The notes under the pieces: model-generated
What the model was told of the DNA's origin: nothing
What the model saw: the letters and a program-made list of their open reading frames with translations, nothing else
Databases searched by the model: none
Shown here: one piece after another, positions 1,452 to 41,270 of the stretch
Layout: every line of letters begins with the position of its first letter
How positions within the stretch are numbered: position 1 is the first letter of the stretch
Translations under genes and position numbers: made by a program
Virus record (IMG/VR): IMGVR_UViG_3300029319_000019
Coordinates: 16,340 to 80,339 of that record
From: a virus
Direction: 5' to 3' (one strand)
DNA length: 64,000 nucleotides

Positions 1452-3847
1452 TACAGTTTAGTTCTAATTTCGTATCCTAGCTTTGCAGCATCATTTACAA
1501 ATGTAACAAACTCTGGGCTATCTACTCTGTAAGTTACATCTCTACCTTTAGTTGGGTCAAACAATGTTACCTTATCTGATGCACCTGAGAATGAGAAAGT
1601 AGCTGAACCTGTTTCTTCACCATCTGGTCCGTATATTGCCATGTCTGCACTAGGAGCACCTGTATGTTTATGTAAGTTCATCTCCATCTGTAGTAGGTAT
1701 CCAGGAGAGTTAAAGTATTGATCCATTTGTTTGTTTCTAATATTACTATATGGTAATATTATTTCCTTACTTACATTTTTATTATTCTTATCCTTACCAA
1801 CTACTGTTAGTTGTAATGTAGGCTCACCAAATGCTGGAGTAGTATGGAATAATACATTTTTAACTTGAATCTCTTCACTACTCCATCCTAAATCTTTAAC
1901 CATTTCAGCTACAGTTCCAATCCCTCTTTGCTGTTTACCGTCCCAATAGATATTAAATGTTTTATCTAGTGGCGTAGACTTAAAGAATTCTTTTACATAC
2001 TTAGTGTTTTTTGTAACATCTTGAGGAGTCATGCCTGGCATGTTGTTAGATGCAAAGGTACCTTTAGTTAATGTAGAATTTTCCTCTAACCATCTATCTA
2101 TCTCTTTCTTGTCTGCCTTTCCTGCATCTGTTAAAGCATTTAAAGATCTTAAAACCGCAAAAGAATCAGACTTATCTCCAAACATATTTTGTACAGCTAA
2201 AGCTCTTTTATATCTATTATGATCAGGATGGCTAGGATCTTGTAATATTCTAGGATCAATCTTAGTAGAAGTTCTAAAAGGATTAACTGTTTCAAAGAAA
2301 GATTCTTCTCCATATATGTCACCTATATCATCTCTGATATTAATAAGATCTATTAGAGTTAGGCTAGGATCGTTAAGAACTTGTCTAGCTCTATCTAATA
2401 ATTCCTGACCTGTGTACTTTCCAAATTCTTGATTAAGTTTAGACTCATCAGTTATGCCAGTTGCTTCGTAAGCTCTCCTCAATCTCTCCTGTTGTATAAC
2501 GACTTGTTTTTTAATAGTCATTACTTTATATCTCATTTCTTGGAATACAGCATTATCTTTTAACTCTTCAGGTACGTTATTAGATATAATATCCTGCTCA
2601 GTAAGTTTTCTACCATCAGTTAAAAATGGAGCAGCTAAAGAGTTAACATCTTGTACAGTTTTAGTTACTGTATTAAGGTTTAAATCAATATTAGCTCCAA
2701 TCTCTGCAGACGTTCTACCACCTATATCATCAAGCTGATTAACTTCTGTAAGTTTAAGTACATTTGGAGTGCTATTTTCTAGTTCAAAATTATAATCAGC
2801 TGTCCATTTTGCTGAATATTCAACAGCGCTGTTCTGATCTACATTCTTAAACACAAACTTGTCATAAGATGTTTGTAGCTCTCTATTAATGTCTTGTTGT
2901 ATTACAGAGTTTTTAAGATAAGTTCTACGCTGTGCAGTAAGATCTTCTCCACTGCCTGTATCATTTAATAATCTTTCTTGTTCTTTTATTATATTATCAA
3001 GTCTTTGTGCTTCTTTATCGTTACCAGAATCAATTGCCTCTTGTCTTTGTTCTATTAGACCTTTAGAGTCTGGATTGTCTTCATCACCATATAATGTAGT
3101 AGATATTCTAGATCGTATCTCTTCATCACTCAAGTGGAATGTTCTTAGTTCTCCTTTTTGTTGAAATGCTGCTGCAACATCAGGGTCTTGCATTATGTTG
3201 TTAAATACACTAGCAACTCTTTCGGGACTAATCTCTTCAACATCAATACCATTAGTAACATAGAAGTTACCATCTTTACTGATTACTTTACCTTCGTTAC
3301 CATACTTTCTTACCGCAACATCTTTCATTTGCTCTGACATCATTGCTTGAATGTCAACATCGTCAACCACATTAAACCCAGAGAAGAAAGAACTTTGATC
3401 TATTGTACCATCTTCATTTTTTTGTAGTCCTGAGTATTCATGTCTAGATCTCTGCAAGGCAAGAGCTCTTGTTTCAGAGTCTATTCTCTTATCGTCATAT
3501 AGCTTATTAAGATTCTCTCTATATGCATTGTATGCTTCATAGTTCTTTTTAATAGGCTGATATTGCTGATCAAAGACTCTAGCACTTTTAGCTACATCCA
3601 TCATCATAGTTTCATAATCACCACGGCCCGCCCTGTCCATTAGTTGTTGTCTAGTACTTTGCTCTAACTGATTCTTAAGATCTTGGTCGCCTGCAAAATC
3701 TGCAGCTTGCATTTGATCTACAGCTCCTGCTAATGCATCATCAGCATTGAATGCTTGTTGAAACCTTTGTCTTTGTAGCGCATTTATCTGTACAGATCCT
3801 GGATCTCTATAAACACTTTGGTAGGGTTTTAAACTATATCTACTCAT
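1451..3847 (-). CDS. Virion cargo (ejected) protein, 798 aa
   Basis: Helical Q/D/E-rich protein starting MSRYSLKPYQSVY. Lies between the C1-like cargo gene and the giant protein, as in crassvirus cargo clusters. Confidence 0.6.
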   Translation of the reverse strand: MSRYSLKPYQSVYRDPGSVQINALQRQRFQQAFNADDALAGAVDQMQAADFAGDQDLKNQLEQSTRQQLMDRAGRGDYETMMMDVAKSARVFDQQYQPIKKNYEAYNAYRENLNKLYDDKRIDSETRALALQRSRHEYSGLQKNEDGTIDQSSFFSGFNVVDDVDIQAMMSEQMKDVAVRKYGNEGKVISKDGNFYVTNGIDVEEISPERVASVFNNIMQDPDVAAAFQQKGELRTFHLSDEEIRSRISTTLYGDEDNPDSKGLIEQRQEAIDSGNDKEAQRLDNIIKEQERLLNDTGSGEDLTAQRRTYLKNSVIQQDINRELQTSYDKFVFKNVDQNSAVEYSAKWTADYNFELENSTPNVLKLTEVNQLDDIGGRTSAEIGANIDLNLNTVTKTVQDVNSLAAPFLTDGRKLTEQDIISNNVPEELKDNAVFQEMRYKVMTIKKQVVIQQERLRRAYEATGITDESKLNQEFGKYTGQELLDRARQVLNDPSLTLIDLINIRDDIGDIYGEESFFETVNPFRTSTKIDPRILQDPSHPDHNRYKRALAVQNMFGDKSDSFAVLRSLNALTDAGKADKKEIDRWLEENSTLTKGTFASNNMPGMTPQDVTKNTKYVKEFFKSTPLDKTFNIYWDGKQQRGIGTVAEMVKDLGWSSEEIQVKNVLFHTTPAFGEPTLQLTVVGKDKNNKNVSKEIILPYSNIRNKQMDQYFNSPGYLLQMEMNLHKHTGAPSADMAIYGPDGEETGSATFSFSGASDKVTLFDPTKGRDVTYRVDSPEFVTFVNDAAKLGYEIRTKL

Positions 3848-6800
3848 TATTTATCTTCTTTTTTATCGTCCTCTTTGGTAGCAGTTGGCTTCGCAAAACG
3901 CTTGTTAAATAGCTCAGCTATGTCAGCATTTGTATATGGTTGACCTGTTCTAGGATTAATTTGATTTCTTAAGAAGTTTCTTAATCTATCTCTTTCATAG
4001 ATTCCCATATCACCAGTAGCTCTTGCTAGTCTCTCACTCGCTTGATAAGACATTGCATCACCTGCTAATCCTGCAATACCTTGCGCAAATGTATCAACTG
4101 CACCTAATCTTCTATTAGACTGTGCAATACGTTCAGCTTCTCTTGCTGCAGTATTAATTTGATTTACACGTAAAGCATTTTGTATATTCTGCGTTCTTGC
4201 TTGCATTTGCATTTGAGCTTCTCTATTTGCAATCTGAGTATTTATTCTAGACTCTTGTGCAGCAATCTTCATATCACCTTCTTGTTTACGTCTGTATGCA
4301 GACATCTTAGCAATGATACCAGCTGGTCCAATACCACTAGTTTCAATAAATCTATTTATCGCTCTATTGTCTGCTGCATTAGCTGCACGCTCTGCATTGA
4401 AGTTAACTCTATCTAGTGCAGGAGCTTTTATTCTACCAGGCGCACCCATTTGTTCTACCGGCTTGTCTTTCTTAAAGAAGGAATATGCTGCTGGTAATAA
4501 CTGTGTTACCCCTGCAGCTATTGCTAAACCTGGTACATTTCTATTAAGTCTTTTAAGAGCTTTCTGTTCTTGCTCTGTTAATTCAACATTACTCTTTGCT
4601 TTATCTATTAAAGCTTGATCCTCTTCTGAAAGCTGCTCATTAATTTGATTTTGTAAATTTAATGCACTCTGCACACCTTGATTTGGATCTACGTTTATTT
4701 CTACTAAGTCATCAAAAGGATTAGGTACTACATTCTCTGAAAGTGTATATTTATTAGGATCTATACCAGGATAAAATAGCTCTTGTCCCTCTTCTTGTCC
4801 CTCTTTCTCTTTCTTTTCTTCTTTTTTAACTTTTTTCTCTTCTTCTTTACTAGCTGGAGGAACAGCACCGCTAGGCCCTAATAAATTTAGTTCCTCACTC
4901 ATTTTATCTATACCGCTTATTGGGTTATATAAATTTATTCCCTGACTAAAGTCATCTATACCATCCATATTAAGATCTGACATTATAACATTTCCTAGTG
5001 GGTCTACACCCCCTAACTGATAGTAACCACCCGCACCTAACTTAACAACGTTAGGATTTCTACCTGCTTTCTTTTCTTGTAGCTTAGCTAGTGCATCAAT
5101 ATCTTTTTGACGTCCACCATTCTTTAGTATATCTTTATGTCTTTGTGCAAATGACTTACCTCCCATCTTTAAATGTTGTGAGAAGAAGTAATCTCCTACA
5201 CCACCTTTCTTCATGGTTACTTTATCCATAGTCTCTCCACCCTCTACCTCTGTCATAGGATCTAGCATTATGCCTCCTTGCTCATGACTTCTACCTTTAA
5301 ACTCTACAGCATCACTACCTGGTATAGGTTTCATTTTACCTCCTGGTAGTTTTACACCACCTCTTTGATATACTTTATTAAAATACTTATCCATACTTGT
5401 AGGATCTCCTGCAGCTCCTGTGCCGTATAGTGCTGGCATGTCACTAGCATCTTGCATAGGGTTAACTAAAGATACTGTTTTTAAAAGTGGTGCTGCTGAG
5501 GCCGCTCCAACTCTTAAAAGTTTAGAACCCATAAGTAAACCTTTTTTTGCAGCTTTTTTAAGACCCATCTTTTCTACAACATTGCTAACACCTGATACTA
5601 TATTATCAACTGCGCTAGGTTTTATTTGTTTTATAATTCTTTGACTAGGAGGCATTGGTATGTTAGGTCTAGGCATATTTTGCAATACTCCAGGAGCCCC
5701 GCCTGTTTGATAATACCCACCATATCTAGCAACATCCTTACCAAAGTCAAATCCAGAATACTCTCTAGCTTTTAAACTTTCCATTTTCTGTCTTTGTAAT
5801 ACTTTTGCAATTTCCCCTCTTTTCTTTCTTTCGGCTTTTGCCATCTCTTTCCTAGCCTTACCTCTTTTTACAAGACCTCCAATTCCTGACACCCCTGCTC
5901 CTATAATACCACCAATCAACGCAGTAACAGGTGCAGCAGGTCCGCCAATCATACCTCCTATACCTGCCCCTGTTCCTAGACCTTGAAGTAATGAACCAGT
6001 TGTTTCTCCTACATTCATTGTTGTAGCATCATCATCGTCTGCTAATTTTTTAACACCCATACCTGCTAAGGATGCAACCAGAGCTGGATTTAACATTGAT
6101 GCTGCAGTAGATGTGCCACCTGTAATAGAACCTGTTAAAAACTCTCCTGCTTTTGCAGCTCCAGTTCCAGCAGTTGCAGATCCTAAATTAGCTATAGATT
6201 GTTTTGCTCCGGCAGCTACCTTAGACAAACCAGTGCTTAGTTTACTGCCCCCAGATACACCCATTACCTCAAATCCCGCTGGTACTTCTGCTCCAGGTAG
6301 TATAGACAGTTCTGCTCCTGTTGCAGGATTTACAGCAAATTGCACACCCTTTGGTGCTGATGCTAGCCCCATTGATTCTGAAACTCCTTTACCATATAAG
6401 TCTGCACCTGTTTTAATTAGTGAAGGATCAGCAGTACTAGCTACCCCAACTGGCATAAAGTTACCAGCCTCATCTTTTATTTTTTCTCCTGTTTTAGGAT
6501 CTACTTTAAACTTTTTACTTTTATCTGCTAAATCTAAAACTTGTTCACCTATACCTTGAACAGTTTGCATTCGTGCTTCTTGCTTAGCTATTTCTTGCTG
6601 AGCTTCATCTTGATATTTAGTAGATTCTTGTGCTGCTTTTAAATCTTCTTCTATAGCTTTTAGTTTAGCAGGATCTGCTTCCTGATATGTAATGGAAGAT
6701 GTTTCCGGTACACCTGGTAATGTATTAGCGCCATACATAGGGGCTTGTTGTAATCCACCTGCTTGGTAGTAACCCATACGTCTCATGAATTCTTTATTAC

Positions 6801-7011
6801 TACTTTTAGGGTAACCGCCTTCTTGCATAGTATCAGCTAGTTTACCAATCTTTTTAGATTGTGCTGCATGTAGCTTAGATGCCTTAGCTAACTGCTTAGA
6901 TACTTTACTAAGAGTTTTTGACTTTCCACCTTTTAACATTCTCTTAGGCTTCTTGCCAGCTTTCTTCATTGATATTGCTATTGCTGCTTGTTGCGCTCTT
7001 GATTTTGCCAT
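3847..7011 (-). CDS. Cargo protein 1-like internal virion protein (crAss001 gp45-like), 1054 aa, with Gly-rich transmembrane-like segments and repeated xxGG motifs
   Basis: Directly downstream of the muzzle gene. Contains the G-x-SHEQGGI...EVEGGE...FS motif, a Gly-zipper hydrophobic segment (GLGTGAGIGGMIGG...GGIIGAGVSGIGG) and a C-terminal Q/N/A-rich coiled coil. Confidence 0.7.
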   Translation of the reverse strand: MAKSRAQQAAIAISMKKAGKKPKRMLKGGKSKTLSKVSKQLAKASKLHAAQSKKIGKLADTMQEGGYPKSSNKEFMRRMGYYQAGGLQQAPMYGANTLPGVPETSSITYQEADPAKLKAIEEDLKAAQESTKYQDEAQQEIAKQEARMQTVQGIGEQVLDLADKSKKFKVDPKTGEKIKDEAGNFMPVGVASTADPSLIKTGADLYGKGVSESMGLASAPKGVQFAVNPATGAELSILPGAEVPAGFEVMGVSGGSKLSTGLSKVAAGAKQSIANLGSATAGTGAAKAGEFLTGSITGGTSTAASMLNPALVASLAGMGVKKLADDDDATTMNVGETTGSLLQGLGTGAGIGGMIGGPAAPVTALIGGIIGAGVSGIGGLVKRGKARKEMAKAERKKRGEIAKVLQRQKMESLKAREYSGFDFGKDVARYGGYYQTGGAPGVLQNMPRPNIPMPPSQRIIKQIKPSAVDNIVSGVSNVVEKMGLKKAAKKGLLMGSKLLRVGAASAAPLLKTVSLVNPMQDASDMPALYGTGAAGDPTSMDKYFNKVYQRGGVKLPGGKMKPIPGSDAVEFKGRSHEQGGIMLDPMTEVEGGETMDKVTMKKGGVGDYFFSQHLKMGGKSFAQRHKDILKNGGRQKDIDALAKLQEKKAGRNPNVVKLGAGGYYQLGGVDPLGNVIMSDLNMDGIDDFSQGINLYNPISGIDKMSEELNLLGPSGAVPPASKEEEKKVKKEEKKEKEGQEEGQELFYPGIDPNKYTLSENVVPNPFDDLVEINVDPNQGVQSALNLQNQINEQLSEEDQALIDKAKSNVELTEQEQKALKRLNRNVPGLAIAAGVTQLLPAAYSFFKKDKPVEQMGAPGRIKAPALDRVNFNAERAANAADNRAINRFIETSGIGPAGIIAKMSAYRRKQEGDMKIAAQESRINTQIANREAQMQMQARTQNIQNALRVNQINTAAREAERIAQSNRRLGAVDTFAQGIAGLAGDAMSYQASERLARATGDMGIYERDRLRNFLRNQINPRTGQPYTNADIAELFNKRFAKPTATKEDDKKEDK

Positions 7012-7013
7012 AA

Positions 7014-10000
7014 TTATCTATAGAATTTTTTTGCAGCCACGTTGGTGGAATACAAATTTATTAATTTTTTTGTAACATTGTCGTATTTTAAGCGAATTCC
7101 TATCCACTTATCTCTGAACTTTCTTTGTTTGTGCCATGATTTACCTGCATCTATAAAATTATTGTTTATAGTTTCAGTCATTCCATCAATATTAAACATT
7201 GGATTTGCATTTACTTGACCATCTGTAACTTCTACACCTGTTGTTATAGTACCTGCAACGTTAGCACCAGGTACACCAAAGTTACTGCCAGTGAAAGCTC
7301 CTGTGTAAATAGTATCATTACTAGTAGTTAATTTAGCTAAGTCTCTAAATTTATTTATCTTCCACTCATTACCTACCTGTCTAGTGTTTATCATATACTC
7401 TATGGGTTGTTCATCAGATATTTGATGTGTAGTGTATACGTAGAAACTATTGAAGCCATGGTCATTTGCAAGAACATTATGAGAATCTTCTACATCTACC
7501 ATATAATCAAAGCTGTAAAATATTTTATCAGAATCTTTACCTGAGTTATATATAAACTCAAACTCTGTTAAATAATTTTCAGTATAAAATCTACCTCTAT
7601 TAATTTCAGAACTATGAACCCAAACATTTCCATAACCTGGTGTAAATGATATAAGAGATTCACCGTGTCTACTGTATATATACGGTATGTAATCATGGAA
7701 TGAAACCCATACATTAAGTTCTACATCATACGAAATAGTCCAACCTGTTGATTCAAAATATTCAGTATCACTGTAATCAATAGGAGTTACTTCAAGCGTA
7801 GAGGCTCCAGTATCGCCTACCTCTCCTATACTAAACACTTCATTTACTATTTCAAATTGATTAGTGGTACTATTAAATTGTGCAATAGGGTACACAAGTT
7901 GTGATAACTGAGCAGCAAGTAAAAGTTCTAATAAATCCTCTGTTGGTTTTAAATCTCTCTTAGTTAAAAGTATCCTGTCATATCTTTCATCATACTCTGA
8001 GTGAAATCCTATACCAAGTATTGGATTATCAATGTCTGATGGCACACCATATTTTTCTAATGTAAAAGGTATGTTGTCTTGGAACCAGCTTTCCATACCC
8101 TGCTTGCCTATGTCATACAACTGATCTTTAAATAAAAATACTCTACGGTTTCTATAATCTAAAGTGAAGTATCCATGTTTAGTTACCATAGAAACCCATT
8201 GAGATTGTGTGCCCCCATATCCATATTTAGTTTGTATAATCTCATCTGGGTCTTGTGCAAATATGTCTCCACTACCTACAAAAGATTCTGTGCCATCTGA
8301 CATTTGCAGGGATTGTTTACCTTTAGTTCTAAATAAACTATCTTCTGTATGCAAGTATAGTAGATTGTTTAATGATAAAAGTTTCCATAAATCTCCTCTG
8401 TTACGCGGCAGGTCTTTAAATTGTAATGCTAAGAATACTCTATAGTTATCTATAAGACTTGTATTGTCTGCCTTTGCAGATCTTTGCACCCTTGTTTTAA
8501 ATATCTCTGGATCGGCCTCTCTAATAGGATAAGGCATTGGAGGTTTAATATCTGCTACTCCCAATGTATATGGATGAGAGTATAGCATAGCATCTTCTTT
8601 TGTTAAATCAACATCTGCTTTAAGATCTAACATTCTTTTAGCAGGGCTACCTGGGAAATAAGCACTTTCTTTATCTTTGTCATGTCTAAAGTTAATGTTA
8701 TCAGTTGACTCACATATTGTATAAATAAGAGTTTTATGATCCCATGGGGCACTAAGGTTATGCTCTGGTCTATGAGATATTCTATATCCATGTCTACATA
8801 AATATGTATCACCTCCCCACACTTCACCAGTCTCTCCAAAAACAGTAAATTCTGTAGCGTTCCCGTTTGCGTCTTCAACATAAGCACCAGGTTCTGTCCC
8901 ATCGTCGTTTAAAATAAAATTTTGTAAATCTTCTCCTAATACTTCATAACCTGTCCATATTAACTCTTGTGTATCAAAAGATAAATACATATCAGTTTTA
9001 AAAGCATGTAGATTATGAATTTGCAATTGAACTGGAGAAGGCGGATTTTCATAATAAAATTGTTGGTCAGGATTATTAGGATCTCCTAGTACAGGATCTT
9101 CAGGATTAATATGCCAAGGAGCGCCTGTACCTGCATCAGACCACCCTCCTTGATTAGGTTGCCTATTTGCTAAGTACCCTAACATTATACTAGATTCTCC
9201 CCCTAAATTATAGATACGTTGACCAAACCCTAAAGACCTTCCATCAAATATAGAATTACCTCGTAAATATGTTTTACATTTTTCTCTTATAGGGTAGTGT
9301 CTAAAGTTTGGTGCTATACTCTGTTGTTGATAATTAGTTCCTATATGAAAACTCTTGAAACTAGAATTTAATATACATTTAGGCCCGTCCCCTGCAGTAT
9401 AAGGAGTGTTACCTTGAAGATTTTCACCAAGGTTGTAATGAACATCTTCATAAGAGTGAAAAGGCCCTCCAAAAGATAACATGTCAACAGTATACTCGTG
9501 ACTTGTATGTGTTCCAGGCACTAAACTATTTTTTCTACTTAATAGATAAAAATCATGAAAAGTTGCAGAATTAATTGCCCCATTGTACAAAGCACCTGAT
9601 GCTAGTATAAAATCTTCTGAGGCATTAAGAGTTTGTACACCATCATCTATGGTCCCTAATGTATCTATAGCCGCGTCACCAGCACAGTCAGATAGATCTA
9701 TATCAAATTGCGAAATATTTTTTTTCAAAAGGTCTTGTCCAAGTATTCTTCTATTACTATGTTTTCTTTCAGCATAGTATATTCTAAACCCTTGCACTTT
9801 GTCTGCAATATCTACTGGTATTTTAATATCTTTAAACCTTACCCCTAAAGGTCTTACTTCATGTGCTATCTGTCCTGCTAGGTTAGTATCAGTAACCTGA
9901 GCTTGCCATATAAAAATTCCGTATGTAACTTGGCTTGGCCATGTGCCTAAATCACCTTGACCTGGTAAATTACCACTTCCAAAGAAATCAACACTATTGT

Positions 10001-12176
10001 CTTGATCTATTTCTACTTGACTATCATCACCATCTCCAATTCCTCCAGCCATGTTAACCCCTGTTACCGTTGACCAAGCACACCCTGATGTTGCAGTTAA
10101 CGCTACTCCAACCTTATTCCAAACAAACCACCCTTCTTGCCCCATTAAAGCCGATGAAGGTTCCTGATATATCCATGTTTCAGCATCGCCCCAGTTATCA
10201 GTTATAGTATCCATAGCATTACCAAATCCAGGAGCGCCGGCTGTACCATTATTCAAGAGGCTATCAACGGGTGTATTACTTGTAACACCAATTAGTCCCA
10301 AGTTATCATCTGTATTATTCCCTCCGTTTGTATTTTCTGCAGCACCCGTATCCTGAAAGTTAGGATCACCAACTGCAAAATAATAAGTTTGTGTAAATGA
10401 TCCATCTGTACCAGTAAACGTTGTAAGATTGTTAGTTATACTAGATTTATATGGGTTAGAGTTACTAGGCATATGATGATGTCTAACATTTGTACCTCTT
10501 AAATCTTCCGCAACCACTTCTGTTACCCCATCAAATACTTTGTAGTCATCTGTGTTGGGATAAAATTCATTTTGGTTTTGCCAAAAATTCATACCATTAG
10601 AATTAGGTAAACCAGAGTAATCATAAAAATGAAATAACTGTCCTTGTGTCTGAGTCATTTCAACCAGACCTGGATCAAAACTAAACTGACTAAGAAAGTC
10701 TGTTTCTTCGTGATTAATATCATCCCAGTCAAGGCTGTTTGATGGGGTAGTACCTATTCCAGTAACACCTGAACCGTCTGTATCACCTATTGCTGTTCTA
10801 CCTGGTATATGATATGCATAGGACATAGTACCATCATTAAGAACAAATGCTATATAAAATGCATATACTTCATCTCTCGTGTAGCCTTTACGCTGGGTTC
10901 TTGAAGCAAAAGGACTTGTACCTCCTACGTCAGATAATGATAAATTATTTACGTCTCTATATCCTTGAGTTTTAGTAATATTAGCAGGAGGAGTTGTATT
11001 TAAATACCCATACATCATATTGTCTTGAGTCAACTCGTACGCATCAAATGGGTTAAATGTATCTACAATACTTACTGATTTAATAAAGTTTGCATGTTTT
11101 TGATACCCAATATCTTTAGTCCCAGTTAAATTGCCCACATATAAAACACCATCTAATTGTGCTAAAGTTTTAGCTGTATCATATGCAACTGTATCTATTA
11201 TAACTTCTTCTACTGATTTTGACTCATACCCTTCTAAACCAGAGAATGTAATTTTTTTACTACCTCCTGTTGTTATATCAACATCGTTTAATTTAAAAGC
11301 AAATTCTGCAGGAGCTCCATCTTTATCTACAGATCTAAATACTACTACAGGTCTAAGAAACTCATAGTCTTTATTTAAATTTGTAACTCTCCAAGCAATA
11401 GATTTACCTGTTTGACTATCAGGTAAACAACCATCATACCTTTCTATAGGACGAACTCCTTCATCATCTTCAACAATAGGAACTCCTAATGAATATGATA
11501 CAAAATTAGTTTGTGTAAAGTCTTGATCTACATATGCTAAAAATAAATAGTATGTTCCAGATTTAAGTGCACCTCCATTAGATATTGTATTAAAACTTAT
11601 ACGTGGAACTGGCCCTGAATGTGGAAATAAATTCATCCTATCTATATAGTTTTTGTTATTAGAAGACCCAGGAGAAACCCCATATAGTTCATTAGATAAA
11701 GAAGTTTGCTGTCTAGTAACATTTAAACTTCTTGGAGGATTAAAGTTATCAGTAAAATATATTATTAAATTACCATTAGGATCAATTTTATATGTTCCTT
11801 CTATTGGATAATTTTTACTAAATTTTAAATCTACATCATTTTCTAAACCCGTAATTGAAGAAGTAGCAGTTTGTCCAGCCGTTGTACTAAAAATAGTAAT
11901 CATACTTGCATCTTCAGGACCTATAGTGCTATATAAATGTATTGAAGAATCGCCATCTTCATTAACTACAAATAGTATAACCTGATCTTCTGTAGTTTCT
12001 ATAGTTCCAATAACCGTCTGATCAATAGATAAAGATTTATAAAATCTAGTACCAGGCTCATTTGATATTGCACCAGCAGTTTCATTTATTAGAATGTTCT
12101 TAGCATATCTATACGATCCTTCTGGTTGGTCTACAGGAGCAGCATCTTTATTTAATCCTTTTATATATTTAGCCAT
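7014..12176 (-). CDS. Muzzle / tail stabilization protein (crAss001 gp44-like), 1720 aa
   Basis: N-terminal KGLNKD...QPEGSYRYAKN, YFTDNFNPPR, RDEVYAFYI, VRHHHMP, GGDTY and WVSFHDY motifs are typical of the crassvirus muzzle. Synteny after ring protein 1. Confidence 0.85.
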   Translation of the reverse strand: MAKYIKGLNKDAAPVDQPEGSYRYAKNILINETAGAISNEPGTRFYKSLSIDQTVIGTIETTEDQVILFVVNEDGDSSIHLYSTIGPEDASMITIFSTTAGQTATSSITGLENDVDLKFSKNYPIEGTYKIDPNGNLIIYFTDNFNPPRSLNVTRQQTSLSNELYGVSPGSSNNKNYIDRMNLFPHSGPVPRISFNTISNGGALKSGTYYLFLAYVDQDFTQTNFVSYSLGVPIVEDDEGVRPIERYDGCLPDSQTGKSIAWRVTNLNKDYEFLRPVVVFRSVDKDGAPAEFAFKLNDVDITTGGSKKITFSGLEGYESKSVEEVIIDTVAYDTAKTLAQLDGVLYVGNLTGTKDIGYQKHANFIKSVSIVDTFNPFDAYELTQDNMMYGYLNTTPPANITKTQGYRDVNNLSLSDVGGTSPFASRTQRKGYTRDEVYAFYIAFVLNDGTMSYAYHIPGRTAIGDTDGSGVTGIGTTPSNSLDWDDINHEETDFLSQFSFDPGLVEMTQTQGQLFHFYDYSGLPNSNGMNFWQNQNEFYPNTDDYKVFDGVTEVVAEDLRGTNVRHHHMPSNSNPYKSSITNNLTTFTGTDGSFTQTYYFAVGDPNFQDTGAAENTNGGNNTDDNLGLIGVTSNTPVDSLLNNGTAGAPGFGNAMDTITDNWGDAETWIYQEPSSALMGQEGWFVWNKVGVALTATSGCAWSTVTGVNMAGGIGDGDDSQVEIDQDNSVDFFGSGNLPGQGDLGTWPSQVTYGIFIWQAQVTDTNLAGQIAHEVRPLGVRFKDIKIPVDIADKVQGFRIYYAERKHSNRRILGQDLLKKNISQFDIDLSDCAGDAAIDTLGTIDDGVQTLNASEDFILASGALYNGAINSATFHDFYLLSRKNSLVPGTHTSHEYTVDMLSFGGPFHSYEDVHYNLGENLQGNTPYTAGDGPKCILNSSFKSFHIGTNYQQQSIAPNFRHYPIREKCKTYLRGNSIFDGRSLGFGQRIYNLGGESSIMLGYLANRQPNQGGWSDAGTGAPWHINPEDPVLGDPNNPDQQFYYENPPSPVQLQIHNLHAFKTDMYLSFDTQELIWTGYEVLGEDLQNFILNDDGTEPGAYVEDANGNATEFTVFGETGEVWGGDTYLCRHGYRISHRPEHNLSAPWDHKTLIYTICESTDNINFRHDKDKESAYFPGSPAKRMLDLKADVDLTKEDAMLYSHPYTLGVADIKPPMPYPIREADPEIFKTRVQRSAKADNTSLIDNYRVFLALQFKDLPRNRGDLWKLLSLNNLLYLHTEDSLFRTKGKQSLQMSDGTESFVGSGDIFAQDPDEIIQTKYGYGGTQSQWVSMVTKHGYFTLDYRNRRVFLFKDQLYDIGKQGMESWFQDNIPFTLEKYGVPSDIDNPILGIGFHSEYDERYDRILLTKRDLKPTEDLLELLLAAQLSQLVYPIAQFNSTTNQFEIVNEVFSIGEVGDTGASTLEVTPIDYSDTEYFESTGWTISYDVELNVWVSFHDYIPYIYSRHGESLISFTPGYGNVWVHSSEINRGRFYTENYLTEFEFIYNSGKDSDKIFYSFDYMVDVEDSHNVLANDHGFNSFYVYTTHQISDEQPIEYMINTRQVGNEWKINKFRDLAKLTTSNDTIYTGAFTGSNFGVPGANVAGTITTGVEVTDGQVNANPMFNIDGMTETINNNFIDAGKSWHKQRKFRDKWIGIRLKYDNVTKKLINLYSTNVAAKKFYR

Positions 12177-13134: not shown

Positions 13135-13404
13135 TTATCTCCAGTTACTACAGCTACCACAATTCCATGCGCGTAGCGATTTATTAATTCTTGAGTTAGG
13201 ATCTCTTTGTCCTTTAGCTCCTGTACGTTTAGCCTTCATCCCACACATTCTACTGCAGAAACTAGAACGTCTTTTGTTACCTTTCTTTTTACTAGGAGCT
13301 TTTAAGTTACCCCCTGTTGCTCTATTATAAGATCGTCTACCTGCAGCGTTTAGTCCACCGCTAGGATTCTTGCCTGCTTTTCTTTGCCATGCTGGTGTTG
13401 CCAT
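13135..13404 (-). CDS. Small highly basic protein (89 aa), probable DNA-binding internal virion protein
   Basis: K/R-rich. PAWQRKAGKNPSGGLN...SFCSRM.GMK...DPNSRINKSLRAWNC is a type I recall from marine phages (DUF6321-like, unverified). Tightly packed in the operon. Confidence 0.7.
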   Translation of the reverse strand: MATPAWQRKAGKNPSGGLNAAGRRSYNRATGGNLKAPSKKKGNKRRSSFCSRMCGMKAKRTGAKGQRDPNSRINKSLRAWNCGSCSNWR

Positions 13405-13406
13405 AT

Positions 13407-13697
13407 TTATATTCTTGCTGGTCCAGGTAGTATAAATCCACCACCCTTCGCACGTTTAACTTTCTTTTTTCTTTTGTACCTACTAACTCTTCCTTTAGTA
13501 TTCTTTTCTCTCTGAGCTCTAGCCTTCTCTGATGCAGATAGTTCAGACCACGTAGATGGTGTATCCTTAGATATACGTCTAGTAGGTCTAAATGTGTTCT
13601 CACCTCCACTGTAGTCTTTCTTACCACTAGGTGTTCTCCATTTTTCTTTAAACCAACGCTTTAGTCTAGCGCCTGCAGCAGTCTTTCTTACAGCCAT
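13407..13697 (-). CDS. Small highly basic protein (96 aa), DUF5872-like
   Basis: LKRWFKEKWRT...RPTRRISKDTP.T.SEL...KA...K motif. K/R-rich, ends KRAKGGG. TAATG coupling. Confidence 0.65.
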   Translation of the reverse strand: MAVRKTAAGARLKRWFKEKWRTPSGKKDYSGGENTFRPTRRISKDTPSTWSELSASEKARAQREKNTKGRVSRYKRKKKVKRAKGGGFILPGPARI

Positions 13698-14813: not shown

Positions 14814-14837
14814 TTTCAAAAATATTTATAATTATAA

Positions 14838-36626: not shown

Positions 36627-37754
36627 TTATATGTTAAGATCTAAATCATCCAAGTCTACTTGTTTACTCTTACGTCTTTGACGTCCTCGTGCACTTTTAA
36701 CTCTTTCTTCATTTCTGGATATTCTATCTCTTAATGATTTAGCATTTGATGTTCTAGCTTTTGTTTCTACCAATTTTGATAAATCAAAACCTTTGAACAT
36801 TAAATAATCAATCGCGAGTTTAGTCTCCATCTCTGCTTCAGAATGATCTAAGTCTCGTTGTGTGCGACCATCGTTAGTCACAGGGTTTGAGATATAATCA
36901 AAAAACTTTGACTTCTCTCTCTTTGGAATAGAGATACCTGCAAAATCATCAGTACTATCGATGGCTTCATACACACCATTCCAAAATTCTTCTTGCTGTT
37001 CTTCTTGTTGAGCTCTTTGTTGTTTTTGCTGTTCAACCAATTGACTTCTTGATTGTTCTTGCATCTTACCTAAAGCTACTCTAGCAGATTCAGCTTTCTG
37101 GTATAATTTACCAGTATCTTCATAATCAGTCAGTAGCTCATTTATAAAATTCTGATCGTGTCCTTTTGTTGCAAAGTAATCAGATAAAATAGCTTTTTGA
37201 CTTCTTATGTCATCTTCTTCAAAACTAACTTGGTTATAATCTAGTTGCGGATCATATGCCTGCATAAAATCTCTAGATTCCCCTCCGTTAAGAACGTATT
37301 CTAGATGTTTTTGTACTAGTGGAAAGTTCTCAAACAAATTATTTAGTTGATCTTCCGCTATCTGTTGTCCAACATCTTGTGTCATTGCTAAAAGACCTTC
37401 TTCAGTATCATCATACTCTTCTTCAGTCTCAAAGCCTAGTTTATCTAGTATTGAAGAAACTACTGTAGAAGTAACAGCTTCTCTGTCATCTTCTTCTTCA
37501 TCGTCATCTTCATACTCTTCGTCTTCTTCGTAGTCCTCATCCTCTTCATATTCTTCCTCTTCTTCTTCTTCAACTTCTTCTACGTCTTCAGACTCTTCTA
37601 ATTCTTCTGCATCCGCATCTAACTCTTCAGCTTCTGCGCTTGGGGTTTCAACTGCTAAATCTTCAGCAACTTCACCTCCTGGATTTCCTCCATCTAAAAC
37701 ATCGTCAAATGAAATATCATCCAAACCGATGCCTTCTTCTTCTGGTTCTATCAT
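36627..37754 (-). CDS. Acidic scaffold-like protein upstream of MCP (crAss gene 77-like)
   Basis: Very D/E-rich N-terminus, coiled coils and canonical position. Confidence 0.7.
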   Translation of the reverse strand: MIEPEEEGIGLDDISFDDVLDGGNPGGEVAEDLAVETPSAEAEELDADAEELEESEDVEEVEEEEEEEYEEDEDYEEDEEYEDDDEEEDDREAVTSTVVSSILDKLGFETEEEYDDTEEGLLAMTQDVGQQIAEDQLNNLFENFPLVQKHLEYVLNGGESRDFMQAYDPQLDYNQVSFEEDDIRSQKAILSDYFATKGHDQNFINELLTDYEDTGKLYQKAESARVALGKMQEQSRSQLVEQQKQQRAQQEEQQEEFWNGVYEAIDSTDDFAGISIPKREKSKFFDYISNPVTNDGRTQRDLDHSEAEMETKLAIDYLMFKGFDLSKLVETKARTSNAKSLRDRISRNEERVKSARGRQRRKSKQVDLDDLDLNI

Positions 37755-37846: not shown

Positions 37847-39025
37847 TTATGCTCTTTTTCTAGACCTTCTAATAGCCTCTTTACCTTTAGTAAATATACT
37901 TGCCACCTGTCTTTTACCCATTACTTTGGCTCTTTGTTCGCCTACCGTAAGGATTTGGATCTTCCTAGCAAACGGTTTATTAACTCTTTTAACCTTAGCC
38001 ACAGTAGCGCGAGCGTCAGCAGGTGTGGCAAAACGTATACCAACAGTATCCTTTGGATTTTCATCCGTATATAATCTTCTACCACTTCCTTTTGGTTTTT
38101 TACCTGTTCCTGTTACTGGATCTTTACCATGCTTAGATCTATAGCCACCTTTTTTATATATTTTACTAGAGTATTTATCTATACTAATAGGATCACCCGC
38201 TGCACCAGTACCATATAAAGCTGGCATATCGCTAGCATCTCTAGATATGTCTACTGGTAATATTGTAGTAAAACCTGATTTTGCAGTTTTTGCTAAAGGT
38301 TTTACAACTTTGTAAATATCTTTACCAAATTTCTTACCTTCCCTTATCAACTCATCTACTTTTGCTTTTTCTTTTCTATAAAATATCTTTAAAGCTTTTT
38401 TAGCAACCTTATCACCTTTGGCTGCATCTTTAACTGCTTTAACCATTCCTTTATAATATTTTGGCTTTTCAACTACCCTTTTTAGATAATCAACTAAGTT
38501 TTGTCCAGCAGTTCCTTCAAAAGGTCTAGTCTTCTTCATACTAGTATATAATGGTTCTCCAGCCCCTGCTGCAGAACTTATAACTTCAAGCTTGTCTTTA
38601 AAACCTCCTTTTTGATAGGCTGGTGTCTCTATAACTGTACCACTCTTTGGTCCTGTAGGTAAATCTTTGATGCCTGGTGGTACATTCTGATACGATTGTA
38701 CTAAATGTCCTTGGTCATCCACCTTTGTAATATTGATAGGCACTCTCATACCTTCAGTATTGAATGATGTATTAGCTGGTACATCTGGAAAAACCATGCT
38801 AGCACCTATGTTACCCATGGCTTGCTGTTCACGTAAACCTACTTGTTGTTCTTGTGGAGTTTGTGCAACTAGCATATTCTCTTGCTTAGCCTGTGCCTCT
38901 GCTTGTAACATTGCTGGTACATTAGCGCCCTGGTTAGCCATTTGATACAAGTCTAATATGCTACCTTCAAATCCAGTAGACCTAGCCATGTCTAATATTT
39001 CTCTACGCATTTGGTTATTCAGCAT
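37847..39025 (-). CDS. Modular basic protein (392 aa) segmented by YxKGG motifs, probable internal virion protein
   Basis: Modules end in AYQKGG and IYKKGG. Shares a 32-aa segment with cargo protein 3847..7011. Lies between portal and scaffold. Confidence 0.7.
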   Translation of the reverse strand: MLNNQMRREILDMARSTGFEGSILDLYQMANQGANVPAMLQAEAQAKQENMLVAQTPQEQQVGLREQQAMGNIGASMVFPDVPANTSFNTEGMRVPINITKVDDQGHLVQSYQNVPPGIKDLPTGPKSGTVIETPAYQKGGFKDKLEVISSAAGAGEPLYTSMKKTRPFEGTAGQNLVDYLKRVVEKPKYYKGMVKAVKDAAKGDKVAKKALKIFYRKEKAKVDELIREGKKFGKDIYKVVKPLAKTAKSGFTTILPVDISRDASDMPALYGTGAAGDPISIDKYSSKIYKKGGYRSKHGKDPVTGTGKKPKGSGRRLYTDENPKDTVGIRFATPADARATVAKVKRVNKPFARKIQILTVGEQRAKVMGKRQVASIFTKGKEAIRRSRKRA

Positions 39026-41270
39026 TGCCCTCTCTTGCTATCTGATTTTTCTCGTTGTCATTGTTTGTTTTAGCATCAAGTTCTTTCTCTCTAATATCTA
39101 GCTCACGCTGTTTGTTTTCAAAGTCTTGCATTAACTTCTGCATATTGAAGCTATCTAACTCTGGATTCTTTCTAGCTTCTGCGTTGATTAATGCTACCTC
39201 AATATCTAGCTGTCTATCTTTTTCTTTATCAATAGAAGCTCTTTCCATTTCTTGTTGTTGCATTTGCATCTGCTGTTGAGCTTGTGCTTGTTGTGCTTGT
39301 TGTTGTGCTTGCTCTAATTCTGCTGCAGCTTTCTCTGCTGCTTTTAACTTGCCTTTTATTTGACTGAAGTTTTCAGACTCAAACATCTCAGCAACCATAG
39401 AAGCTTTAGTACCATTCTGAATCATAGCCTGTGCGAGACCCTTAATCTGATCTAATCTCTGTTGATCCTTGCCAGCGTCAGATACAAAGATACCATAGTT
39501 AGCCTCCATATGTTGCAAAGTGTCAATGTCTAAAAAGTCTGCAGTACCATCAGGCATTACAAACATACCTTGTTTACCAGTAAGCCATGCTTCTTTTGAA
39601 TAGTCAAGCAGTGCTTGTAAATCTCTTTGTTCTAATCTAGCAAATTTTCTAAATAAATCTTCTGTAATATGTGAAGATTGTAATATAGCTTGCTGTGAAC
39701 TAGCTTTACCTTCATACGCACCAATCGTACCTTGTCTTTGTCTAGACACACCAGATATTTTCTCCCACTCTTGTAGTATAGATTCTAACAGTGTTATGTA
39801 TTGTGATATAGTCTTGATTGACATATCAAGAACTGATTGATGTTGTGGGTTAAGTTGTATACCTTCTTTGTTATAATCTACCCATGCAATACCCGTACCT
39901 TCTACATAGTACATAAATTTATCCATGTCCCATTTCTTAGGAATCATGTTAATATCAAACTGTGCAATAATATCTTTACTTCTAGCTATTGCCAGTTCCA
40001 TTCTATACTTGTAGATATTGTAGTTTAACTGATAAGGTATACCAAGTGATACTAGTGAAATATTGTCTGCATTTATATCAGAGTACTTTCTACCATTGAT
40101 AGGCAGTTTGCAAGTAGATGCATTGTCAATAGATAACCTTTGATTAGCTACAGGATTAATGTTAATGTAAAATCTACCATCAATACGTGTACCTTCCCAT
40201 ACTTCATTTACCCATAGATAAGTTACCTTAGCTCCTGCTTCTTTTAGCTCTTTAGGCATTCTAAACTTTTCATCAACCTCCATCTCTTCCATAGCTCCAG
40301 TATCTGGGTCCATGTATTCTAAGAAACCTACTCTTTTTCTTGACTTCCAATATACAGTAACTACTTCTATTAATCTGTTTCTGTATGTGTTTGGATCAGA
40401 ACCTGCTCTTGCTCTTCTGTATAATAGGTATGATTCTGGATCTGATTGTCTAGGCTCTTCTAGTTCTAGTACTTGTTCATCTGTTAATGACTCATAGAAT
40501 GAATCTATAACTGATGATGCATGTACATACTTTCTAACTAATGCCCAGTCTCCATCTTCTACAAACTCTATGTCTGGATCTTTATCATAATCAATATCAA
40601 TAGGATTTAATACTTCATAGAATGGCTCTTTGTTTCTCACGCCTCTATGTGTATATACTTCACCTGATACTAAAAAGTGAAACCAAGCTTTTTGTATTTT
40701 ATCATACACCTCTGACTGTTGCATTATGTATGTCATAGCATGTTGTCCTTTGATAGCTCTGTTATCTACATAACTATTCTCAAACTGATCTGCTATTTCT
40801 TTAGGCATTGGAATATCTTCTGGAGTTTCAATATTCTGCATTACCTCTGGATTAGTTTCAGCTAATACTTTTAAGAATCTTTGTTGTAAGTTTTGATATA
40901 TAGCTTGTTGCTTTGCTTTTTCTTTCTGACTTACAGCGTCTCCATTTTGTACTGTAACGGTGTAATTAAGAGGTCTTTTAGACTTCTCACCTAATAAAAG
41001 ATCAATAATAGGTTTGATAATAGGATAGTTACGCATTTTAGAGGGGAAATTTGTACGGGACTTGCCGTAAGGTTGTGTAACGTAACGATAGTCATCCTCA
41101 TAAATTACACCGTTGTAGTAATCATACAATCTCTTTAGGTCATCTTTTCTTTCGTTGACCCCATATAAAGATAACTCTATGTAGGCTTCTACACAGCTCT
41201 CTCTCCATTTTTTATTCTTCTTTGATAAAGGCAGCTTTTGCTGCGGTATTTTGTCTCCCCCTAGATACAT
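39015..41270 (-). CDS. Portal protein, 751 aa
   Basis: P.Q.LP.SKK.KKW, NYPIIKPIIDLLLGE, V.VYWKS, WVNEVWEGTRI, KLP.NG and GVSRQRQG motifs typical of crassvirus portals. Confidence 0.92.
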   Translation of the reverse strand: MYLGGDKIPQQKLPLSKKNKKWRESCVEAYIELSLYGVNERKDDLKRLYDYYNGVIYEDDYRYVTQPYGKSRTNFPSKMRNYPIIKPIIDLLLGEKSKRPLNYTVTVQNGDAVSQKEKAKQQAIYQNLQQRFLKVLAETNPEVMQNIETPEDIPMPKEIADQFENSYVDNRAIKGQHAMTYIMQQSEVYDKIQKAWFHFLVSGEVYTHRGVRNKEPFYEVLNPIDIDYDKDPDIEFVEDGDWALVRKYVHASSVIDSFYESLTDEQVLELEEPRQSDPESYLLYRRARAGSDPNTYRNRLIEVVTVYWKSRKRVGFLEYMDPDTGAMEEMEVDEKFRMPKELKEAGAKVTYLWVNEVWEGTRIDGRFYININPVANQRLSIDNASTCKLPINGRKYSDINADNISLVSLGIPYQLNYNIYKYRMELAIARSKDIIAQFDINMIPKKWDMDKFMYYVEGTGIAWVDYNKEGIQLNPQHQSVLDMSIKTISQYITLLESILQEWEKISGVSRQRQGTIGAYEGKASSQQAILQSSHITEDLFRKFARLEQRDLQALLDYSKEAWLTGKQGMFVMPDGTADFLDIDTLQHMEANYGIFVSDAGKDQQRLDQIKGLAQAMIQNGTKASMVAEMFESENFSQIKGKLKAAEKAAAELEQAQQQAQQAQAQQQMQMQQQEMERASIDKEKDRQLDIEVALINAEARKNPELDSFNMQKLMQDFENKQRELDIREKELDAKTNNDNEKNQIAREGNAE

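What the first reader, a model, noticed from the sequence alone, without database searches (positions are those of the whole stretch)
5356..5451. 32-aa module duplicated 33 kb apart in two unrelated genes, ending exactly at an xxGG motif
Seen: DASDMPALYGTGAAGDPTSMDKYFNKVYQRGG in the cargo protein (5356-5451) and DASDMPALYGTGAAGDPISIDKYSSKIYKKGG in the 392-aa protein (38144-38239). The first 17 residues are identical while the DNA differs at many third codon positions, which points to selection on the protein. Both copies follow a basic amphipathic stretch and similarity stops at GG. Inference: this is direct evidence that GG-terminated modules move between internal virion proteins, and the segment may be a shared docking motif.
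Basis: partly seen in the sequence, partly recalled or inferred. Interest (0 to 1): 0.75.

Follow-up and report, generated by a model that had tools for sequence, protein, structure and literature searches.

The report
Shared peptide cassette in phage cargo proteins
Two otherwise unrelated internal proteins of an uncultured marine crAss-like phage carry the same old, strongly conserved 32-residue peptide, because both are built from swappable cassettes that end in a Gly-Gly tag; what the peptide binds is still unknown.

Summary
The copies are residues 521-552 of a 1054-aa gp45/C1-like cargo protein and 263-294 of a 392-aa protein encoded just after the portal gene. They match at 25 of 32 residues. 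The first 17 are identical despite 11 synonymous and no non-synonymous changes, so selection acts on the peptide.

The two proteins are not paralogues. Alignments of relatives show that both are strings of cassettes that are present, absent or replaced between close relatives. Breakpoints fall 4-8 times more often than chance at [Y/M/F]-[Q/K]-x-G-G tags. At least two other cassettes, including an SLT-type one, are also shared between the two families.

The transfer is old. The DNA copies group by gene family, and the two copies in this genome are the most diverged pair. The peptide is dispensable, since two near-complete relatives lack it entirely. It is predicted to be disordered and acidic, and it follows basic helices. 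In the cargo protein it lies directly before the block that aligns weakly to the portal-bound domain of crAss001 gp45.

My best reading is an accessory short binding motif on an exchangeable cassette. An essential docking signal is unlikely. No evidence shows cleavage at GG, and no protease was found. The scan has already seen the GG junction tag in other crAss-like genomes.

The parts
5356..5451 (-). Module copy 1: residues 521-552 of the cargo protein. It consists of an acidic 17-residue core, a variable part and a YQRGG junction tag.
   Evidence: AF2 pLDDT <50
5356..5691 (-). Cassette X: residues 441-552, running from the YYQTGG tag to the YQRGG tag. It fills a variable slot that holds at least four alternative cassettes in orthologues. 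Its only full-length counterpart found is in the cargo gene of locus L134.
5008..5355 (-). Invariant block, residues 553-668, directly after the module. It is a weak but collinear match to the portal-bound domain of crAss001 gp45 (residues 425-552).
   Evidence: invariant columns; local score 58, z 5.1, 2/2000 shuffles; not significant by HMM
3847..7011 (-). Gene for the 1054-aa C1 (gp45)-like cargo protein, directly downstream of the muzzle gene. It has a 28-residue leader ending in KGG and a Gly-zipper hydrophobic segment at about residues 349-381.
38144..38239 (-). Module copy 2: residues 263-294 of the portal-adjacent protein.
   Evidence: AF2 pLDDT <50 across 251-310
38144..38602 (-). Cassette B: residues 142-294, from the AYQKGG tag to the YKKGG tag. 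It comprises a disordered linker, five basic helices (173-250) and then the module. Among the relatives examined, the ten closest homologues and three IMG/VR loci carry it.
38603..39025 (-). DUF192-fold head domain, residues 1-141. This is the invariant N-terminal part of the family and always ends in a [AS]Y[QK]xGG tag.
   Evidence: Pfam PF02643 29.7 bits against a cut-off of 27; AF2 pLDDT >90; 3pjy Z 9.8 and 3m7a Z 9.3
37847..38143 (-). Cassette F: residues 295-392, a confident helical domain. It occurs as a stand-alone 96-aa gene in Pelagibacter phage HTVC033P (gp40) that starts within one residue of the GG boundary.
39015..41270 (-). Portal gene, directly upstream of the 392-aa protein gene.
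   Evidence: synteny in 80/80 loci
36627..37754 (-). Acidic scaffold-like protein gene (110 D+E against 37 K+R), lying between the 392-aa protein gene and the major capsid protein gene.
7014..12176 (-). Muzzle protein gene, directly upstream of the cargo gene.

Best explanation
The 32 residues are the conserved end of an exchangeable cassette that has long resided in two unrelated families of virion-internal, probably ejected, proteins of a marine crAss-like phage lineage.

Carrier 1 is the gp45/C1-type cargo protein encoded after the muzzle gene. Carrier 2 is a previously undescribed protein encoded between the portal gene and the scaffold-like gene. It has an invariant DUF192-fold N-terminal domain followed by a variable string of cassettes.

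Shown here:
- Both proteins are chains of cassettes, each closed by a [Y/M/F]-[Q/K]-x-G-G tag.
- Relatives add, drop and swap cassettes at these tags, and several cassettes occur in both families.
- The peptide is under strong purifying selection.
- The two copies are old and have descended within their own gene families.
- The peptide is dispensable.

Inferred: the acidic, disordered 17-residue core that follows basic amphipathic helices acts as a short linear binding motif. It would give both carriers the same accessory contact. I think the most likely site is the portal vertex, because in the cargo protein it lies directly before the block that corresponds to the portal-bound domain of crAss001 gp45, and the other carrier is encoded next to the portal gene. 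A host target reached after ejection is almost as likely.

The last six residues or so (x-Y-[Q/K]-x-G-G) are simply the generic junction tag.
For: - Real and selected: E 2e-15; 0 non-synonymous against 11 synonymous changes in 17 codons.
- Cassette architecture in the DUF192 family: alignment A3 shows cassettes B, C, D, E and F present or absent with every boundary at xxGG. P0012 is head domain plus cassette F only. Lengths range from 149 to 1369 aa, always with the head domain first.
- Cassette architecture in the cargo family: invariant flanks surround a slot with at least four alternative fillings. L134 carries X and Y in tandem.
- Breakpoints at GG are 4-8 times the random rate.
- Other cassettes are shared between the two families.
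- Fused and free forms both exist: cassette F matches HTVC033P gp40, and the 28-residue leader occurs with or without its downstream protein.
- Age: core pS is 0.87 within this genome, 0.46 cargo to cargo and 0.50 head to head. Orthologous head domains differ by only 0.15-0.39.
- Disorder: pLDDT <50 in both models.
- Charge pattern.
- Placement next to the gp45-like portal-bound block.
- Conserved order terL > portal > DUF192 protein > scaffold-like > MCP in 80 of 80 loci.
Against: - No partner has been identified, and no complex could be modelled.
- The peptide is absent from 72 of 72 other cargo homologues retrieved, from 65 of 67 complete portal-adjacent genes in IMG/VR, and from two 93-96% complete related genomes. 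It cannot be a general docking signal.
- A profile search of 1.84 billion representative proteins found it only in this lineage, plus one 825-aa relative.
- The match of the downstream block to the gp45 portal-bound domain is weak: z 5.1, but the HMM score equals that of shuffles and Pfam crAss_CARG1 is not hit.
- Predicted disorder could simply reflect the shallow alignment for this cassette.
Confidence: 0.5

Rival explanations
1. The GG tags are cleavage sites of a maturation protease. Both proteins would be polyproteins, and the module would be either a recognition exosite for the adjacent cut or a peptide released inside the capsid.
For: - The tag is a specific motif (bulky residue, Q/K, x, G, G), not a generic linker, and resembles adenain sites.
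- It closes every cassette.
- Cassette F and the small protein after the leader exist elsewhere as free genes that start where the GG ends.
- A 151-aa K/M/G-rich protein has eight MxxGG repeats, like adenovirus core precursors.
- The DUF192 protein occupies the portal-to-scaffold slot where prohead proteases are usually encoded.
Against: - No protease family is detectable in the genome.
- The DUF192 domain has no cysteine and matches only DUF192 structures of unknown function.
- Eight invariant GG pairs lie inside the 116-residue conserved block of the cargo protein. Cutting at all of them would shred it.
- The head-only 149-aa forms keep the tag although nothing useful follows it.
- In crAss001 the resolved gp45 segment 425-552 starts inside an NAFGG tag.
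- No cleavage is reported for crAss001 ('cleav' 0 occurrences).
Confidence: 0.18
2. The peptide is a host-directed payload. After ejection it would bind a periplasmic or membrane protein of the host, in the manner of the short disordered binding epitopes in colicin translocation domains.
For: - It is dispensable and patchy among close relatives, like accessory host-range or counter-defence cargo.
- Sister cassettes in the same slots are cell-wall modules: SLT, LysM and glucosaminidase.
- In P0197 the cassette precedes an SLT domain.
- It is a disordered, Gly-rich context with one short conserved epitope.
Against: No similarity to any known host-binding box was found. The host is unknown. The evidence is purely circumstantial.
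Confidence: 0.25
3. A recent duplication or gene conversion within this genome copied the segment from one gene to the other.
For: The rare variant S-[I/M]-D-K-Y in the second half of the module is shared by the two copies of this genome and by the closest head-family relative, P0006.
Against: - Synonymous sites are saturated between the two copies (pS 0.73-0.87), against 0.15-0.39 between orthologous genes of related phages.
- The pair within this genome is the most diverged of all pairs.
- There is no long identical nucleotide run.
Confidence: 0.03
4. The two proteins are diverged full-length paralogues, or the match is chance or low-complexity similarity.
For: Both proteins are basic and Gly-rich and carry the same junction tags, which creates many short spurious matches.
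Against: - There is only one significant segment (E 2e-15), and the conserved cores of the two families are unrelated.
- The 17-mer is conserved in 13 distinct sequences from other samples.
Confidence: 0.01

Closest known systems
Cargo protein C1 (gp45) of Bacteroides phage crAss001 (Bayfield et al. 2023, PMC10172136)
   Same: - The gene lies directly after the muzzle gene and the protein is of similar size.
- It has a Gly-zipper hydrophobic segment near the N-terminal third.
- The C-terminal helical region aligns (hhalign E 4.6e-5, probability 69%).
- A block with collinear G-x-SHE, DY-x-FS and GK-x-FA motifs corresponds to the portal-bound domain 425-552.
- The resolved segments of gp45 are themselves bracketed by aromatic-GG tags.
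   Different: - Pfam crAss_CARG1 does not hit it or eight relatives.
- gp45 has no counterpart of the 17-mer.
- The cassette slot before the portal-bound block is hypervariable in the marine clade.
MuF / SPP1 gp7 minor head proteins and MuF polymorphic toxins (Jamet et al. 2017, PMC5576092)
   Same: - The gene lies immediately downstream of the portal gene.
- A conserved N-terminal domain is followed by a highly variable C-terminal payload, with monodomain forms alongside long forms.
- gp7 binds the portal and is packaged in the head.
   Different: - The N-terminal domain has a DUF192 fold and is not MuF; there is no MuF Pfam hit.
- The payloads are several GG-tagged cassettes, not one toxin domain.
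- Packaging of this protein has not been shown.
Capsid-targeting sequences and internal proteins of phage T4 (own knowledge), and polyvalent packaged proteins (Iyer et al. 2017, PMC5512222)
   Same: - A short shared leader or junction peptide sits on a set of otherwise unrelated internal proteins.
- Multi-domain proteins are thought to be packaged and injected, in some cases after proteolytic processing.
   Different: - T4 sites are L/I-x-E, cut by the gp21 protease. Here the tag ends in G-G, and no protease or cleavage is known.
- No zincin or assemblin-type peptidase domain is present.
Adenovirus protease (adenain) sites (M/I/L)-x-G-G|x in basic core precursors (own knowledge)
   Same: The tag has a bulky residue, then x, G, G, and recurs in very basic internal proteins, including a K/M/G-rich 151-aa protein.
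   Different: - No clan CE or other cysteine protease was found.
- The bulky residue usually sits one position further from GG (Y-Q-x-G-G).
- Cleavage has not been shown.

Membership tests
crAss cargo protein C1 (gp45; Pfam PF25725 crAss_CARG1) | Match to the Pfam family model | tested here: not met
   No Pfam family at E<=1 for P0003 or for eight relatives.
crAss cargo protein C1 (gp45; Pfam PF25725 crAss_CARG1) | Gene directly downstream of the muzzle gene in the late operon | tested here: met
   Muzzle gene at 7014-12176(-) (crAss_MUZ_C, phrog_15100), followed by 3847-7011(-). crAss001 has gp44 followed by gp45.
crAss cargo protein C1 (gp45; Pfam PF25725 crAss_CARG1) | Sequence homology to crAss001 gp45 | tested here: inconclusive
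   hhalign on the C-terminal region gives probability 68.6%, E 4.6e-5. BLASTP gives three collinear weak segments. The mid block scores z 5.1 against shuffles, but the HMM score is no better than shuffles.
crAss cargo protein C1 (gp45; Pfam PF25725 crAss_CARG1) | Presence in virions, bound to the portal and the tail barrel | not testable with these tools
   This needs proteomics or cryo-EM of this phage.
DUF192 (PF02643, COG1430) | Pfam match above the gathering score | tested here: met
   29.7 bits against a cut-off of 27, E 7.1e-7, residues 52-136. Precomputed PF02643 is present on many homologues.
DUF192 (PF02643, COG1430) | The fold of the solved DUF192 proteins | tested here: met
   The AF2 N-domain has pLDDT >90. 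Matches: 3pjy_B Z 9.8, rmsd 2.6, 90 aligned; 3m7a_B Z 9.3, rmsd 3.0, 90 aligned. Foldseek probability 1.00.
MuF / SPP1 gp7 portal-associated minor head proteins | MuF domain (PF04233, PF06152 or related) | tested here: not met
   DUF192 is the only Pfam hit, and there is no PHROG hit.
MuF / SPP1 gp7 portal-associated minor head proteins | Gene immediately downstream of the portal gene, with a conserved N-domain and a variable C-terminus | tested here: met
   Synteny holds in 80 of 80 loci. The head domain is always at residue 1, and total lengths are 149-1369 aa.
GG-specific polyprotein processing (adenain-like, Ulp-like or C39-like) | A protease of such a family encoded by the phage | tested here: inconclusive
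   No peptidase family was found among about 70 ORFs scanned. Only 25 of 36 weak families were listed, and an unknown or host enzyme is not excluded.
GG-specific polyprotein processing (adenain-like, Ulp-like or C39-like) | Recurrent x-x-G-G motif at module boundaries | tested here: met
   The motif occurs 8 times in 1446 residues of the two proteins, against 3 times in the rest of the proteome.
GG-specific polyprotein processing (adenain-like, Ulp-like or C39-like) | Demonstrated cleavage after GG | not testable with these tools
   This needs mass spectrometry of virions.
Double-glycine leader peptides (C39 substrates) | Hydrophobic residues at -4, -7 and -12 before GG | tested here: not met
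   The module has Q/K at -4, K at -7 and D at -12. The consensus is from my own knowledge.

The most novel reading that the evidence does not exclude
The [Y/M/F]-[Q/K]-x-G-G tag, including the one that closes this module, is a sorting-and-processing code for crassvirus internal proteins. The code would be read by the DUF192-fold domain encoded in the portal-to-scaffold slot, which would then be a new kind of prohead protease or cargo receptor. The conserved 17-mer would be the handle that positions particular cassettes at the portal.
Probability: 0.12. Interest if true: 0.85.

Novelty: new variant of a known kind. Interest (0 to 1): 0.5.

Why it matters
crAss-like phages are among the most abundant viruses in guts and oceans, yet it is not known how their large load of injected proteins is chosen, packed and diversified.

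This locus gives a clean, datable example of one functional peptide kept identical in two unrelated internal proteins. It shows that the two proteins draw on a common pool of cassettes joined by one tag.

It also brings out a core gene that no isolate database or paper I could search describes. This is the portal-adjacent DUF192-fold protein, which has more than 1400 metagenomic homologues and sits in the slot where a prohead protease or a MuF-type carrier normally lies.

A single virion mass-spectrometry experiment on any cultured member would settle whether the tags are cut and whether these proteins are packaged.

Tried and rejected
- Nucleotide and protein searches of 50,697 deposited phage genomes gave no match to the cargo gene. 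For the 392-aa protein only the C-terminal cassette F matched.
- PDB sequence searches with P0003, P0004 and the cargo profile gave nothing meaningful.
- PHROGs gave no hit for either protein.
- A Foldseek search with the cargo model gave nothing. The model is too poor (mean pLDDT 45) to count as evidence.
- The ESM Atlas search on cassette X gave only unnamed viral clusters scoring below 0.9.
- Literature searches for DUF192 in phages, for a Gly-Gly prohead protease and for double-glycine in Crassvirales found nothing relevant.
- An HMM of block 553-668 scored no better against gp45 than against shuffles.
- The small basic ORFs at 13135-13897 have no detectable homology to cassettes in my local sets.
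- I looked for a split gene downstream of the head-only 149-aa forms and found none.
- I considered the cargo 'Y' cassette (…PGLMLTP…AGAS…GG) as a diverged allele of the module. The patterns resemble each other, but L134 carries both in tandem, so they are not alternative alleles.
I therefore could not obtain DNA for the closest ENA homologues (P0006, P0125).
Full report
**1. Observation**

The coordinates are right but the coding strand is minus. On the plus strand both stretches translate to nonsense with stops. On the minus strand they give the two printed peptides. Copy 1 is residues 521-552 of the 1054-aa ORF 3847-7011(-). Copy 2 is residues 263-294 of the 392-aa ORF 37847-39025(-).

BLASTP between the two proteins finds one significant segment of 70 residues (49% identity, E 2e-15) and nothing else. 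A six-frame search of the whole 80,339-base virus record finds exactly these two copies.

Of the 32 codons, 25 encode the same residue. The first 17 are identical in protein but differ at 11 synonymous positions and no non-synonymous position (pS 0.87, pN 0). Over all 32 codons pS is 0.73 and pN 0.093. Selection is therefore on the peptide and not on the DNA.

The upstream stretches are basic (+10 and +16) with amphipathic-helix potential, and the 17-residue core is acidic (-3). Similarity ends at the GG on the C-terminal side. On the N-terminal side it fades inside the cassettes and not at a GG.

**2. Context**

The window is the late block of a crAss-like phage. The identifiable genes are:
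- Crass_capsid at 35132-36580 (E 1.8e-82);
- a P22-like portal at 39015-41270;
- the large terminase at 41349-43340;
- tail ring proteins 1 and 2;
- the muzzle protein at 7014-12176.

The 1054-aa protein follows the muzzle gene, as gp45 (cargo C1) does in crAss001. The 392-aa protein lies between the portal gene and a very acidic scaffold-like protein that precedes the capsid gene. The order terL > portal > this gene > scaffold-like > MCP holds in all 80 related IMG/VR loci, wherever the contig reaches.

**3. The 392-aa protein**

Its first 141 residues are a DUF192-fold domain:
- Pfam gives 29.7 bits against a cut-off of 27.
- The AF2 pLDDT is above 90.
- The structural matches are 3pjy (Z 9.8) and 3m7a (Z 9.3).

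A word-indexed search found 1463 homologues. The head domain always starts at residue 1 and always ends in [A/S]-Y-[Q/K]-x-G-G. What follows varies from a 13-residue tail (149 aa in all) to 1369 aa.

The alignment of the closest relatives (A3) shows discrete cassettes B, C, D, E and F that are present or absent in different combinations, with every boundary at x-x-G-G. P0012 is exactly the head domain plus F.

Cassette F (residues 295-392, a confident helical domain) is a free-standing 96-aa gene in Pelagibacter phage HTVC033P. That gene starts within one residue of the GG boundary.

The module is the end of cassette B (residues 142-294). Cassette B consists of a disordered linker, five basic helices and then a 60-residue stretch with pLDDT below 50 that holds the module. 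It is present in the ten closest homologues and in three IMG/VR loci (two of the 67 complete genes and one partial gene), always directly after the head domain.

**4. The cargo protein**

Seventy-two homologues were retrieved and none carries the module, not even those at 73-81% identity. Alignment A4 shows why. Between an invariant …GGYYQxGG (about residue 440) and an invariant GG|VKLPGG… (552/553) lies a slot filled by at least four unrelated alternatives. A second variable slot follows GGYYQLGG (668).

In this phage the first slot holds a 112-residue cassette (X, residues 441-552) that ends in the module. One IMG/VR contig (L134) has a cargo gene with a homologous cassette X (61% identity over 74 residues), followed in tandem by the cassette Y that the closest relatives carry alone. 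An 825-aa protein (P0197), found by the 1.84-billion-protein profile search, carries an X-type cassette between the N-terminal helices of the head family and an SLT domain. That search found the module nowhere else.

**5. GG tags as seams**

In all-against-all BLAST within each family, the internal C-terminal ends of aligned blocks fall within 3 residues of a GG in 23% (head family) and 48% (cargo family) of cases. Random positions give 6% and 11%.

The motif [Y/M/F][Q/K/Y/E/M]xGG occurs 8 times in the 1446 residues of these two proteins and 3 times in the rest of the proteome.

Other cassettes are shared between the two families. One is a 175-residue SLT-type cassette (46-48% identity, E 1e-38) that ends at …QKGG in the cargo proteins and …QTGG in the head proteins. 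Another is an 88-97-residue segment.

The 28-residue N-terminal leader of the cargo protein, which ends in KGG, heads dozens of unrelated small proteins in IMG/VR. One class of these matches the window's own 89-aa ORF, which begins leaderless where the leader's GG would end.

Earlier reports of this scan reached the same view on other crAss-like genomes. I did not rely on them for any result here.

**6. Age and direction**

Across the six DNA copies available, the two copies of this genome are the most diverged pair in the 17-codon core (pS 0.87). The cargo copy is closest to the L134 cargo copy (0.46), and the head copy is closest to the L017 head copy (0.50). Orthologous head domains of relatives at 87-98% protein identity differ by pS of only 0.15-0.39.

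The exchange therefore long predates the divergence of these phages. Each copy has since descended within its own gene, and the peptide has been held constant throughout. Recent conversion is excluded. One oddity remains: the rare second-half variant S-[I/M]-D-K-Y is shared by both copies of this genome and by P0006. This could hint at co-adaptation to one partner, but the sample is too small to say.

**7. What it does**

The peptide is dispensable. Two relatives that are 93% and 96% complete have no copy at all. It is therefore not the signal that brings either protein into the particle. The invariant head domain, the invariant cargo blocks and the leader are better candidates for that role.

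It is predicted to be disordered in both proteins, is acidic, follows basic helices, and is perfectly conserved. That is the signature of a short linear motif that folds on a partner.

Where it sits may be informative. The block that follows it (residues 553-668) is the most conserved part of the family. It aligns best, of all positions in crAss001 gp45, to residues 411-570, with collinear G-x-SHE, DY-x-FS and GK-x-FA motifs at similar distances from the preceding GG tag (local score 58 against 29.9 ± 5.5 for shuffles; 2 of 2000 reach it). [quoted passage not shown]

Two further lines support homology to gp45: hhalign supports it for the C-terminal region (E 4.6e-5), and the Gly-zipper segments align collinearly. 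Against this, an HMM of the block is not significant against gp45, and Pfam crAss_CARG1 is not hit. The mapping is therefore suggestive only.

On this basis I place an accessory contact at the portal vertex first (about 0.3) and a host target after ejection second (about 0.25). A role tied to cleavage at the adjacent GG comes third (about 0.15-0.2).

**8. Cleavage**

In favour:
- The tag is specific.
- Fused and free forms of the same modules exist.
- A K/M/G-rich 151-aa protein (14364-14819) looks like a string of short basic peptides separated by MxxGG.
- The DUF192 gene sits where prohead proteases usually do.

Against:
- No protease family was found.
- The DUF192 domain has no cysteine and no protease-like structural neighbour.
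- Eight invariant GG pairs lie inside one conserved 116-residue block.
- The head-only forms keep the tag.
- The resolved gp45 domain of crAss001 begins inside such a tag.
- The crAss001 paper reports no cleavage.

The question stays open.

**9. Comparison with known systems**

In working style the portal-adjacent protein resembles MuF/SPP1 gp7 and the MuF polymorphic toxins. Those are also encoded after the portal gene, with a conserved N-domain, a variable C-terminal payload and portal binding (PMC5576092). However, this protein has a different fold and is not a member of that family.

The leader and tags recall the T4 capsid-targeting sequences and the packaged polyvalent proteins (PMC5512222). 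The tag itself recalls adenain sites. None of these memberships is met.

**10. Verdict**

The feature is real and selected, and the structural interpretation is correct. As a mechanism it is a new variant of a known kind: mosaic, cassette-built internal phage proteins.

Noticed in passing
window 14364-14819 (-): A 151-aa, extremely basic K/M/G-rich ORF (49 K+R, 14.6% Gly) lies between the ring protein 2 gene and an HU-like gene. It has eight M-x-x-G-G repeats and an acidic tail, and resembles a precursor of short basic core peptides.
   Followed up: partly
window 6928-7011 (-); loci L085-L128: The first 28 residues of the cargo protein (MAKSRAQQAAIAISMKKAGKKPK..KGG) form a leader. It heads dozens of unrelated 56-250-aa proteins on IMG/VR contigs and usually ends in GG at residue 28-32. 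The window's 89-aa ORF 13135-13404 is a leaderless form of one of these proteins.
   Followed up: partly
window 37847-38143 (-); L003:5989-6279: The C-terminal cassette F of the 392-aa protein is a stand-alone gene in Pelagibacter phage HTVC033P (77% identity). It also has homologues of 41-45% identity in Prochlorococcus and Synechococcus myophages. In metagenomes it is fused to other Pfam domains (PF00174, PF04371, PF19846).
   Followed up: partly
window 36627-37754 (-): A 375-aa protein with a long Asp/Glu-rich N-terminus and a basic C-terminal tail lies directly upstream of the capsid gene. It is probably the scaffolding protein and is conserved in position in all related loci.
   Followed up: partly
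proteins P0136, P0143, P0146 vs P0046, P0057: An SLT-type cassette of about 175 residues is shared between cargo-family and DUF192-family proteins of other phages (46-48% identity). It ends at a QxGG tag in both. Some cargo proteins also carry LysM between tags.
   Followed up: partly
protein P0197 (825 aa, metagenomic): P0197 keeps the N-terminal helices and the last strand region of the head domain, but has the module cassette where the DUF192 beta core should be. An SLT domain follows.
   Followed up: no
L139:27988-30516 (crAss001 gp45): The two gp45 segments resolved by cryo-EM (214-245 and 425-552) are bracketed by aromatic-GG tags at 206-210, 424-428 and 559-563. The tags therefore mark structural units in a gut crassvirus as well.
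   Followed up: partly
window 5869-5967 (-), residues 349-381 of the cargo protein: This is a glycine-zipper hydrophobic segment (GIGGMIGG…GIGGLV) that aligns to the predicted transmembrane region of crAss001 gp45. It gave weak hits to microcin E492 and to a dynamin membrane paddle.
   Followed up: no
whole genome G000: Pfam finds DUF5872, DUF6321, DUF5675 and DUF6171 small proteins in this genome. I did not determine which ORFs they are.
   Followed up: no
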